Assembly (NCBI RefSeq): GCF_037042905.1
Contig: NC_087251.1
Span: 10,852,001 to 10,916,000 of the forward strand
Origin: Lytechinus pictus
Lineage: Eukaryota
Direction: 5' to 3'
DNA: 64,000 nt
Shown here: positions 44,954 to 47,900 of the stretch, piece after piece
Layout: the number at the start of each line of letters is the position of its first letter
How positions within the stretch are numbered: the first letter of the stretch is position 1
The notes under the pieces: generated by a model
What the model was told of the DNA's origin: nothing
Databases searched by the model: none
What the model saw: only the letters and a program-made list of their open reading frames with translations
Translations under genes and position numbers: made by a program

Positions 44954-47900
44954 CTATCATGAGGGGAATAGAAAGGGTGTGTGTGTGAGAGAGGGGAGGG
45001 GCAGGCATCCATAAGCAAATCGGAAAGGGGGGAAAAAACCCAGAAGAAACACACCATTGAATAGACCATCCGGGCCATGGAAACAATTTTTTTACAGGGG
45101 GTGCTGATCGGTAATTTGACAAAGCCCCCCCCCCCCAAAAAAAAAAAAATAAGGGGGGTTCACTTTAAAATAAAATTCATTTTGGTCCAGATAAATTTGA
45201 CAAGTAAAAAGGGGGTTTTACTAAAAAATGTAGGTAATTTTGATTATATTTATACATTTCGCCACACCATATACCAGAATTCCAGGGGATGCTGCCTTTG
45301 GAGAATAACACACGCAGCACGCCCCGCGGAAAATCTTGGGGTGCTTCAACATTCCCGCTTCCCATGCATGGCCCTGCCCCCCCAAAAAAAAAAATAAGGA
45401 GAGAGTGAATGCAAGTAATCAACCGTACTGCTGATACATGTTCTTACTAATTTCTTGGAATTAGGCAAGACCCAAAATATTTCGGGGAATGCACATCCAC
45501 ACTTTTCATGATTCCCTTTAACTTTTAAAATGGTTGTTTACTAGTACTCTAAGGCCAATACTAAATCAAAGTAAGGCATGGCTGCAATGAATGAATCCAG
45601 ATGCCAATGATGTCATAATCCTACATGAGTTAGTAAACATAGGCCTATTTGCAATTCTCTTTTCAATGATATTAATTTGAGAATTGATACTACAAAGCAT
45701 TTATTAAAAAATTCTAATGTTAATTATTGAAAAGGTGTTTTACAATGGAGTTTAATGCAAACCTTGTAGAAAATAATATGACATCATTGACATCTGCATT
45801 CATTAATTGCTGTCATGCCTTACATGTTCTTGGCGCAAATCAAAACTTACATCACTGTAAAGAATACCTATATCATTATCCAAGCGTGAAGACATACATG
45901 CATACCGCATAAAATATGGTAACAAATTATTTGGTAGAAGATACTCTTTCCGGACACATATAATGATTATTATTTTGCTAATATCATATTTTTACCCTAT
46001 ATTCGGTATTTTGTGAGGTGTCATTTTTTTTTACTCACGGTATAACGAAGAAACAGGTAAATTAGCCAAAAACAATTTAAAGTGAATCTTCCATGCAAGA
46101 CCAAGAACAACTCAGGGTGAATCTTCGATGCAAGACTAAGAAGAACTCGAGGGCAATATTCGCTTTTTTTTAGTAATTTCTGGATACCAGTTTAAAGCGA
46201 ATTGACGAAATCCAGAACAGGTTTAGGAATTCTCTACAAAGTTATTTGTTATCATAAATTTACATCCACTACCTGTACTCTACAGTATTTATTCCTACTG
46301 CAATTAAGATACTTTTTAGAAGTGTTCTTGACAATTACCCATTGCAAGGAATACATTGCAACTTATTTTTCGTTTTGTTTTGGTTCTTCTAACTGTGCTT
46401 TTGTATGGGGACACGTTCGACTAGCAATTGTGCTATTTTATATATGGTCACATTTACCGTTGTACATGTGTTTAACTTCATTATCAATGTAAATAAAATA
46501 AAATTAAATCAAATCAAGCACAGCATAAGTTATAATAATCTGATGTTTTTCTCTAAGGTTGTAACGTTCCCTTAAACCTTACCAACAAGAGACCCAAGTA
46601 GGAATCCGGAGCCGTAGCAGAGGTACAGTACTGCGGATGTTTCCAATGCCTTCTCTTTTCCAAATAGATCAGGGGCAAGACTGAAAACGACCACGTTATC
46701 AATCGCTATGGCTATTCCAACAGCTAAAAGAGTGATTAAAAAACAAAATTTTCTGGTGTTCTTAACTTATATATTTAAAAATTGTATTGCTTGATTCCAG
46801 TGGCGTAATTACGGGGGCCCACGTGCCCTCCCCCCATCGGCTGGCAAAAAAAAAAGAATGGCAAAAAGAAGCTGCTGAAAACTGCTTATCTAATAAAAGA
46901 GAGCCAATGGAGTAAATTAGAAAGTCAAAAGGGGCCTAAGCTTTCGATCCTAGCAGAATCTTCGTCGGAGGGAAAATGGTCATTTTGCCTCCGACGAAGA
47001 TTCTGCTAGGATCGAAAGCTTAGGCCCCTTTTGACTTTCTAAAAAAAAGAACGGAGGAAAGGGATGAAAAGAGGAAGAAAGGAAGAGAACGTAGTGGGAA
47101 AGAAGAAATTATTGTACATTAAAATATTTTATATTATGTTATATTATATAATAAATATTTTTTGATAACTTTATGAAACATAATTTGCTCAGGGTCCATG
47201 TGTTCATCGTTCGTGGTGCTCGCATTGTCTGTTTAACGAGATATATAATCCTGTTGTAATAAACATCCAGTTTTCAAGTCAATATACACCATATTTTCTC
47301 GGACATCGAGTTATCATTGTTTTATGTAGTGACATAATTATGCTTCTTTTTCATGACTACTCATTGCCCCCTTTTAAGGTCTGAAGACTGAATATAAAAC
47401 AATTCCAGTCCGTGCTTACGTTCGCATTACTGGATTGGTGAAATATGTCTGCTCTTCGTGAATTCCTGAAATCAGTTCATAAAATGTTCCCTTTGCTGAT
47501 ATTTATATCAACAATTTATGATAATAATAATTTTCAGCTCGCGCTCGCGTCATTTGGTTAGTGAAATGCGTATGGACGTGAATTCCTACAAACAAGCCTT
47601 AAAATGCCCCTCTTCGGGTCTGAATTTCCTTCGCGCTGGCAATATTTGATTAGTGAGATGCGTATGTTAATCATGATTACAATGACTGCAAAAAGTGCTT
47701 CATGTGTTTAGATGTAATTCTAACAAAATCAGCAAGCGCTTGGCACTCGCATTGGATGACTATGGTGAGATATGTACACTCTTAATGGAGTCCTAAAAAA
47801 CAGTCCTTAAAATGTCCCTGTTTGGGGTCAATATATACAAAATTTCAGCTCGCCCTTCGCGCTTGCATTGTTTGTTTAGCGAGACAGGTATGTATCATAA

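What the first reader, a model, noticed from the sequence alone, without database searches (positions are those of the whole stretch)
46869..47041. Inverted pair of minimal hammerhead-ribozyme motifs forming a ~124-bp palindrome in an SLC16 intron
Seen: 46918-47041 is a near-perfect palindrome (one mismatch, 2-nt centre). It belongs to a ~190-bp insert that is absent from the sister hAT copy at 19870. The plus-strand arm reads gcct|CCGACGA|a|gattct-gct-aggatc|GAAA|gc|TT|aggc. That is helix I (4 bp), a CUGANGA core with U4 changed to C, an extra A after A9, a 6-bp helix II, GAAA, a self-complementary AAGCUU helix III and a CUU cleavage triplet (predicted cut after 47021). The minus-strand copy has one helix I mismatch. 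Established: Penelope-like retroelements carry minimal type I hammerheads with palindromic helix III in their pseudo-LTRs, often act as dimers, and often insert as inverted ends. Inference: this is a Penelope pLTR remnant that puts a ribozyme motif on both strands, including the SLC16 pre-mRNA, where the long hairpin would probably mask it and create dsRNA.
Basis: partly seen in the sequence, partly recalled or inferred. Interest (0 to 1): 0.72.

Follow-up and report, generated by a model that had tools for sequence, protein, structure and literature searches.

The report
Head-to-head Penelope ends with hammerheads
The palindrome and its two small hammerhead-ribozyme motifs are real, but they are most likely an ordinary dead-end insertion of a Penelope-like jumping gene, two short end pieces joined head to head, and the long hairpin is predicted to keep both ribozyme motifs from folding.

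Summary
A 126-bp palindrome (46917-47042, 62 of 63 pairs) carries one minimal type I hammerhead motif per strand; 300 simulated windows gave none. New here: the insert is 179 bp (46862-47040) between 14-bp target-site duplications. It consists of a one-sided 57-nt tail, a 60-nt minus arm and a 62-nt plus arm, inside a hAT-like element in a predicted intron of an SLC16-like gene. Public runs show arm and tail belong to a high-copy repeat whose usual copies continue upstream instead of folding back. The motif fits the published Penelope minimal-hammerhead consensus except U4>C. The same core architecture lies behind GIY-YIG (some RT/GIY-YIG) ORFs in unrelated metagenome contigs. Head-to-head inverted ends with a junction palindrome, one-sided tail and TSD are published for Penelope elements. 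Not shown: a Penelope ORF for this very family (no genome held), reads across the fold-back junction, or cleavage. Each strand holds one sense motif beside its antisense copy, so folding is predicted to be blocked. Earlier unchecked notes of this scan report the same kind of element elsewhere in this genome. Verdict: new member of a known kind, low interest.

The parts
46848..46861 (+). Left copy of a 14-bp target-site duplication (one C>T change, at a CpG of the right copy)
   Evidence: best flanking direct repeat, 13 of 14
46862..46918 (-). 57-nt one-sided tail: 3' extension of the minus arm, part of the repeat family
   Evidence: depth, arithmetic; tail concept from PMC8557442, PMC3846280, PMC11167929
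46919..46978 (-). Minus arm (60 nt), 5'-truncated element end; sense to the predicted SLC16-like pre-mRNA
46934..46972 (-). Minimal hammerhead motif, minus copy: 3-bp helix I, U4>C, predicted cut after 46938 on the minus strand
46979..47040 (+). Plus arm (62 nt), tail-less element end; begins 2 nt further 5' in the element than the minus arm
   Evidence: table 7 (138 reads leave before 46979 with one shared upstream sequence, 79 leave after 47040 with mixed flanks)
46987..47025 (+). Minimal hammerhead motif, plus copy: 4-bp helix I, U4>C, extra A, 6-bp helix II, 4-nt palindromic helix III, predicted cut after 47021
47041..47054 (+). Right copy of the 14-bp target-site duplication
46798..48073 (.). 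Host non-autonomous hAT-like DNA element (10-bp TIRs, 8-bp TSD at 46790-46797 and 48074-48081) that received the insert
19870..21952 (.). Sister copy of the hAT-like element without the insert (10-bp TIRs, 8-bp TSD)
46583..46723 (-). Predicted downstream exon of the SLC16-like gene; acceptor at 46724, 138 nt from the insert
49062..49286 (-). Predicted upstream exon of the SLC16-like gene
   Evidence: an X15 contig covers 49062-49288 with 0 differences (table 8)

Best explanation
This is a 179-bp insertion between 14-bp target-site duplications, made of two short head-to-head copies of a high-copy repeat end, each with a minimal hammerhead motif, and it is most likely an aborted, inert Penelope-like retrotransposition product. 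Shown: palindrome, motif anatomy, TSD, one-sided tail, high-copy family, usual copies continuing upstream. Inferred mechanism: a Penelope GIY-YIG endonuclease nicked the A-rich tract of the hAT-like element with a 14-nt stagger; reverse transcription began at the tail-inclusive start, stopped after about 117 nt, and switched onto its own new strand (fold-back), with the second end resolved at the tail boundary. I put about 55% on fold-back and 35% on priming from both target strands at the two start sites. In the parent element the motif would fold as a type I hammerhead whose helix III forms only between two tandem copies or with help from the element's protein. Here each strand holds one sense motif next to its antisense copy, so a 60-bp hairpin is predicted to out-compete the ribozyme fold; U4>C and, on the pre-mRNA strand, a shortened helix I would weaken it further.
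For: Motif matches the metazoan PLE consensus of PMC4209133 in the extra base after A9, G10.1-C11.1, palindromic 15.2-16.2, long helix II and short helix I. 0 chance hits in 300 simulated windows. TSD 13 of 14. Anatomy equals the described PLE pattern of inverted 5'-truncated copy, tail at one end only, TSD and head-to-head junction palindrome; two RT start sites defining the tail are shown in vitro in PMC11167929. Summed contig depth over the insert is 3,500-4,200 (X1) and 5,100-6,000 (X4) times that of unique intron, tail included (not a copy number). 138 X22 reads continue upstream of 46979 into one shared sequence (agreement 0.75), and 79 leave after 47040 with mixed flanks (0.49). In metagenome contigs 39 of 94 matches to the core pattern have helix I of 3 or more and helix II of 4 or more pairs, against a shuffled mean of 0.33, maximum 3. 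Of 10 nearby ORFs scanned, 7 hit GIY-YIG and 3 of these also RVT_1 weakly; in 6 of the 7 the motif lies 190-784 nt behind the stop on the same strand. In the full insert the probability of the ribozyme's helix pairs is 0.0 on both strands, against 0.997 and 0.95 for the plus arm alone.
Against: No RT/GIY-YIG ORF was tied to this family: no genome is held, the family-specific pattern found 0 loci in viral, metagenome and prokaryote collections, and the 36 ORFs of 100 aa or more in the window include none that I recognised as Penelope (only 9 were scanned). The metagenome loci are other families (blastn reaches only the 35-38-nt core in 2 of 88 loci) and are not independent (overlapping stretches, related contigs). 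None of the 56 representative motifs in PMC4209133 Fig. S3 has C at position 4. The tail (57 nt) and TSD (14 bp) are longer than the published 30-40 nt and 8-10 bp. No listed read or contig spans the fold-back junction (most rows are hidden). Rfam gave no hammerhead family among 9 matches at E up to 10.
Confidence: 0.86

Rival explanations
1. The family is a non-autonomous, hammerhead-bearing retrozyme or SINE-like element with no ORF of its own, moved in trans by a Penelope protein; this locus is a truncated inverted copy of it.
For: No ORF link found; no ATG in the minus arm plus tail; very high summed depth; a 2026 preprint argues animal retrozymes derive from PLE pLTRs (part 1 of 5 read).
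Against: Retrozymes are described as tandem arrays with type I hammerheads in each unit; this insert has no tandem unit, and its motif is the minimal, PLE-type form. The insertion chemistry would be the same.
Confidence: 0.07
2. The palindrome is a small DNA fold-back or MITE element, and the hammerhead pattern is incidental.
For: Near-perfect inverted repeat with a TSD, inside a DNA transposon.
Against: The inverted arms do not reach both ends (57-nt one-sided tail); usual family copies are single-armed (138 reads); the motif has 0 chance hits in 300 simulations.
Confidence: 0.02
3. The host has kept the hairpin or ribozyme to regulate the SLC16-like pre-mRNA (editing, small RNAs, splicing or cleavage).
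For: A 60-bp hairpin lies 195 nt upstream of the predicted acceptor; three more pyrimidine-tract AG sites lie in or next to the insert on the pre-mRNA strand.
Against: Contigs of runs X1 and X4 that cover the flanking exon stop fitting before the insert (271 of 311 and 330 of 428 letters laid, table 8), which suggests but does not show an empty site in a close relative; the pre-mRNA copy has lost a helix I pair.
Confidence: 0.03
4. The fold-back is a sequencing or assembly artefact of a single-arm insertion.
For: No listed read spans the centre; fold-back chimeras are a known library artefact (own knowledge).
Against: The arms differ at one base, end asymmetrically at a family boundary, and are enclosed by one TSD, which an artefact would not be expected to produce.
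Confidence: 0.02

Closest known systems
Minimal hammerheads (min-HHR) of metazoan Penelope-like elements (Cervera and De la Pena 2014, PMC4209133; main text parts 1-2 of 4 and supplement parts 1-2 of 3 read)
   Same: Type I topology, no helix III loop, palindromic 15.2-16.2, extra base after A9, G10.1-C11.1, 6-bp helix II, 4-bp helix I. The paper already reports dual motifs about 100-700 bp apart on opposite strands, and sea urchin examples.
   Different: C at position 4 in both arms; the two motifs here are only about 15 nt apart and form one hairpin.
Inverted pLTR insertions of endonuclease-positive Penelope elements (Arkhipova et al. 2013, PMC3846280; Craig et al. 2021, PMC8557442; passages read)
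   Same: Inverted 5'-truncated copy at the 5' end, head-to-head, palindrome at the junction, tail at one end only, whole insert inside one TSD.
   Different: No ORF or full pLTR left; tail 57 nt rather than 30-40; TSD 14 bp rather than 8-10.
PAc Poseidon element in vitro (Frangieh et al. 2024, PMC11167929; parts 1-2 of 4 read)
   Same: AT-rich target; two element 3' ends separated by a tail; hammerhead just upstream; no RNA-seq ends at the cut site.
   Different: In PAc the ORF starts inside helix II; here the arm plus tail has no ATG.
Animal non-LTR retrozymes (bioRxiv 10.64898/2026.07.22.740005; part 1 of 5 read)
   Same: Short, non-coding, type I hammerhead, Penelope-related.
   Different: Retrozymes are tandem head-to-tail arrays; this is one inverted pair.

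Membership tests
PLE minimal hammerhead (min-HHR) | Core CUGANGA ... GAAA ... UH | tested here: not met
   All core positions match except position 4, C instead of U, in both arms. PMC3088659 (passage) says a U4C variant lowers activity in vitro but supports viroid infectivity. So: a variant or damaged member.
PLE minimal hammerhead (min-HHR) | Extra base between 9 and 10.1; G10.1-C11.1; palindromic 15.2-16.2 | tested here: met
   A46998; G46999-C47013; G47018-C47019.
PLE minimal hammerhead (min-HHR) | Long helix II, short helix I | tested here: met
   6 bp and 4 bp (plus), 6 bp and 3 bp (minus).
PLE minimal hammerhead (min-HHR) | Covariation of helices across family members | tested here: inconclusive
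   Seen across other families with the same core (6 of 9 pairs change on both sides, 17 rows, rows mostly chosen for pairing). Not seen for this family: its variant rows were hidden (501 rows).
PLE minimal hammerhead (min-HHR) | Self-cleavage as a dimer or with the PLE protein | not testable with these tools
   Needs an assay. No pile-up of RNA ends in X22 (table 6), which ordinary RNA-seq may not show.
Endonuclease-positive Penelope-like element insertion | Motif lies in the pLTR behind an RT + GIY-YIG ORF | tested here: inconclusive
True for same-architecture motifs of other families.
Endonuclease-positive Penelope-like element insertion | Inverted 5'-truncated copy, head-to-head, junction palindrome | tested here: met
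   (table 7),
Endonuclease-positive Penelope-like element insertion | Tail at one end only | tested here: met
   57 nt at 46862-46918, high depth; longer than the published 30-40 nt.
Endonuclease-positive Penelope-like element insertion | TSD in an AT-rich target | tested here: met
   14 bp, 13 of 14, A-rich.
Endonuclease-positive Penelope-like element insertion | Dispersed multi-copy family | tested here: met
   Depth thousands of times the unique intron in X1 and X4; mixed 3' flanks in X22; 21 of 24 listed runs hold the stretch or part of it, 9 studies, 3 organism labels.
Non-LTR retrozyme | Tandem head-to-tail units each with a hammerhead | tested here: not met
   One inverted pair, no second same-strand copy in the window. 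Not tested for other copies of the family.
Rfam hammerhead families | Match to a curated covariance model | tested here: not met
   No hammerhead among 9 matches at E up to 10 over 46000-48000; only hairpin-type models below their gathering scores.

The most novel reading that the evidence does not exclude
The whole high-copy family carries a C4 hammerhead core that stays active with the element's protein, and short hammerhead-only head-to-head doublets like this one are a recurrent product whose two outer ends mark the two reverse-transcription start sites; they would then be a genome-wide record that decides between fold-back and two-strand priming in Penelope integration, and a source of intronic double-stranded RNA.
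Probability: 0.1. Interest if true: 0.4.

Novelty: new member of a known kind. Interest (0 to 1): 0.13.

Why it matters
It matters little alone: truncated inverted Penelope ends with minimal hammerheads are described, and this copy is predicted to be silent. Its modest value is as a very compact, clean example (TSD, tail, 2-nt-offset fold-back, tail-less second end in 179 bp). A set of such copies could test how Penelope elements make inverted ends, which the papers read leave open. If C at position 4 proved family-wide, it would add a core variant that CUGA-based searches miss.

Tried and rejected
Own genome: none held, so no copy count, consensus or ORF walk. Family-specific pattern: 0 loci in viral contigs, metagenome contigs and genome contigs. 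Earlier findings by sequence, by words and near this place: nothing. Rfam: microRNA-type matches are generic hairpin hits below gathering score, rejected. Run search: no RNA holder on record was listed, which is no evidence on expression. RNA run X22: no place where many molecules begin or end; only 43 of 2,732 laid reads were 99% alike or more and the host exons had depth 0-2, so neither cleavage, splicing nor editing at this locus could be judged. The position-4 base in other copies could not be read because 501 difference rows were hidden. Cis dimer of the two motifs: rejected, since they lie on opposite strands. ORF start within arm or tail: no ATG. Pfam on the two flanking exons and last exon: no MFS hit. 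Lunse et al. 2016 on dimer cleavage was not held; I saw only its title in a reference list. Supplement part 3 of PMC4209133 and the supplements of the other papers were not read; they may list C4 variants. In one search, 55 of 94 pattern matches failed the helix test and were left out of the covariation set; one search used 15 hand-picked loci plus the two arms.

Full report
Observation. The palindrome is real: 46917-47042, 62 of 63 pairs, a 2-nt centre and one mismatch at 46972/46987. It is the only one of its size class in the window and folds far better than shuffles (z -19.8). Each arm reads outward from the centre as a type I hammerhead without a helix III loop (positions). A descriptor allowing U or C at position 4 finds these two hits only, and none in 300 simulated windows. 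Rfam has no hammerhead match here; I infer that its models need a formed helix III.

Boundaries. Alignment with the sister repeat at 19870 puts the extra DNA in an A-run. The flanks carry a 14-bp direct repeat, 46848-46861 and 47041-47054, 13 of 14 identical. The insert is therefore 46862-47040, 179 bp: a 57-nt tail, a 60-nt minus arm and a 62-nt plus arm. The site lies in a predicted 2.3-kb intron of a minus-strand MFS gene whose best solved-structure matches are monocarboxylate transporters. No spliced read confirmed this intron.

Family. No genome is held. 21 of 24 listed public runs hold the stretch or part of it, under three organism labels. Four runs were laid on 46473-49322. Summed contig depth over the two bins covering the insert is 3,500-4,200 times the unique intron in X1 and 5,100-6,000 times in X4; a rough subtraction leaves the tail alone at about 2,300 and 4,000 times. 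The tool warns this is no copy number; it does show a high-copy repeat that includes the tail. In raw RNA run X22, 138 reads leave the plus arm before 46979 with one shared upstream sequence (agreement 0.75), so ordinary copies are single arms that continue 5'. Another 89 and 79 reads leave after 47036 and 47040 with mixed sequence (0.55, 0.49), consistent with a tail-less 3' end. X1 and X4 differ from the window by roughly 3-6% in unique DNA while two X15 contigs show no differences, so X1, X4 and X22 are probably from a close relative. Their contigs over the neighbouring exon stop fitting before the insert, which hints at an empty site but does not show it. No place with many RNA ends was found, and host exon depth in X22 was 0-2, so expression-level questions stay open.

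Same architecture elsewhere. The family-specific pattern found nothing in three collections. A general pattern with the same helix III end gave 88 loci and 94 matches in metagenome contigs. 39 of 94 have both helices, against a shuffled mean of 0.33; the matches include overlapping stretches and related contigs, so they are not independent. Of 10 neighbouring ORFs scanned, 7 hit GIY-YIG, 3 of them also RVT_1 below its cut-off, and 3 hit nothing. In 6 of the 7 the motif lies 190-784 nt behind the stop on the same strand. [quoted passage not shown] An alignment of 15 picked loci and the two arms shows changes on both sides in 6 of 9 pairs (rows were mostly chosen for pairing). These are different families, so this supports the kind of motif, not the parentage of this copy.

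Literature. PMC4209133 (main text parts 1-2 of 4, supplement parts 1-2 of 3) defines the minimal PLE hammerhead with the features seen here, reports dual motifs on opposite strands, and finds low activity only in multimers or extended forms. None of its 56 representatives has C at position 4. PMC3088659 (passages) says U4C lowers activity in vitro but is tolerated in a viroid; it was the only paper found for hammerhead + U4C + catalytic core. PMC8557442 and PMC3846280 (passages) describe the inverted 5'-truncated copy, the one-sided tail, the TSD and head-to-head junction palindromes. PMC11167929 (parts 1-2 of 4) shows nicking and extension of both target strands, two RT start sites that define the tail, a protein-assisted hammerhead not needed for insertion, and no RNA-seq ends at the cut site. 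PMC6765202 (passages) reviews dimer cleavage. The bioRxiv retrozyme paper was read in part 1 of 5. Lunse et al. 2016 was not held.

Mechanism. Shown: anatomy, TSD, family, motif. Inferred: endonuclease nicking of the A-rich target, reverse transcription from the tail-inclusive start, early stop, then a switch onto the new strand, with the second end fixed at the tail boundary. Both arms stop within 2 nt of the same template position and share C4, which fold-back explains directly. That each outer end is an element 3' end also fits priming from both target strands, so that route stays open. For function, each transcript holds one sense motif and its antisense copy. Folding gives the ribozyme helices a probability of 0.0 in the full insert on either strand, against 0.997 (helix II) and 0.95 (helix I) for the plus arm alone and 0.79 and 0.02 for the minus arm alone. 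On the predicted pre-mRNA strand the antisense arm is made first and the motif has lost a helix I pair. The insert is therefore predicted to be a silent hairpin.

Earlier notes of this scan (unchecked) call the genome a sea urchin and report several Penelope-type hammerhead ends, head-to-head pairs and 13-14-bp TSDs elsewhere in it. I did not test these; I read them before looking for the TSD here.

Verdict. Observation confirmed, interpretation supported, new member of a known kind, interest 0.13.

Noticed in passing
L058/L059, L065/L066, L050/L051, L008, L017, L060 (metagenome contigs): Tandem units of about 4.8-5.9 kb: ORF1 of about 600 aa (the one scanned has no Pfam hit), ORF2 of about 800 aa with RT and C-terminal GIY-YIG, then a minimal hammerhead. 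In L065/L066 and L017 CCCTAA repeats sit just before a hammerhead. The passages of PMC8557442 read give telomere-repeat junctions for endonuclease-lacking PLEs and a single ORF for canonical endonuclease-positive ones, so this may be an unusual PLE group. No literature search was made for it.
   Followed up: partly
window 46853-47042 in run X15: Depth over the insert is 17,000-25,000 against 250-3,100 over most of the host hAT-like repeat, a much higher ratio than in X1, X4 or X22. If X15 is an RNA run this family may be strongly transcribed in that organism; the run type is not on record.
   Followed up: no
window 47039, 46890, 46841 (minus strand): Three pyrimidine-tract AG sites in or next to the insert, upstream of the predicted acceptor at 46724; possible cryptic acceptors.
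   Followed up: no
window 20943-21891: 455-nt arms, 97% complementary, 39 nt apart: a long fold-back element nested in the sister hAT-like copy, with a partial copy at 23258-23668.
   Followed up: no
window 969-2933 (+), 15132-18717 (-), 58296-60883 (-): Three LINE-type retrotransposon remnants; RVT_1 hits for one ORF of each.
   Followed up: no
window 7044-7520 (+): Exon with a GCD14 tRNA methyltransferase subunit match, E 5.5e-23.
   Followed up: no
window 55781-56800; 11560-11800 and 12930-13475: 17-bp tandem array, and an inverted pair of 16-bp arrays about 1.2 kb apart.
   Followed up: no
window 37714-38997 (+): 427-aa stop-free frame with no Pfam match.
   Followed up: no
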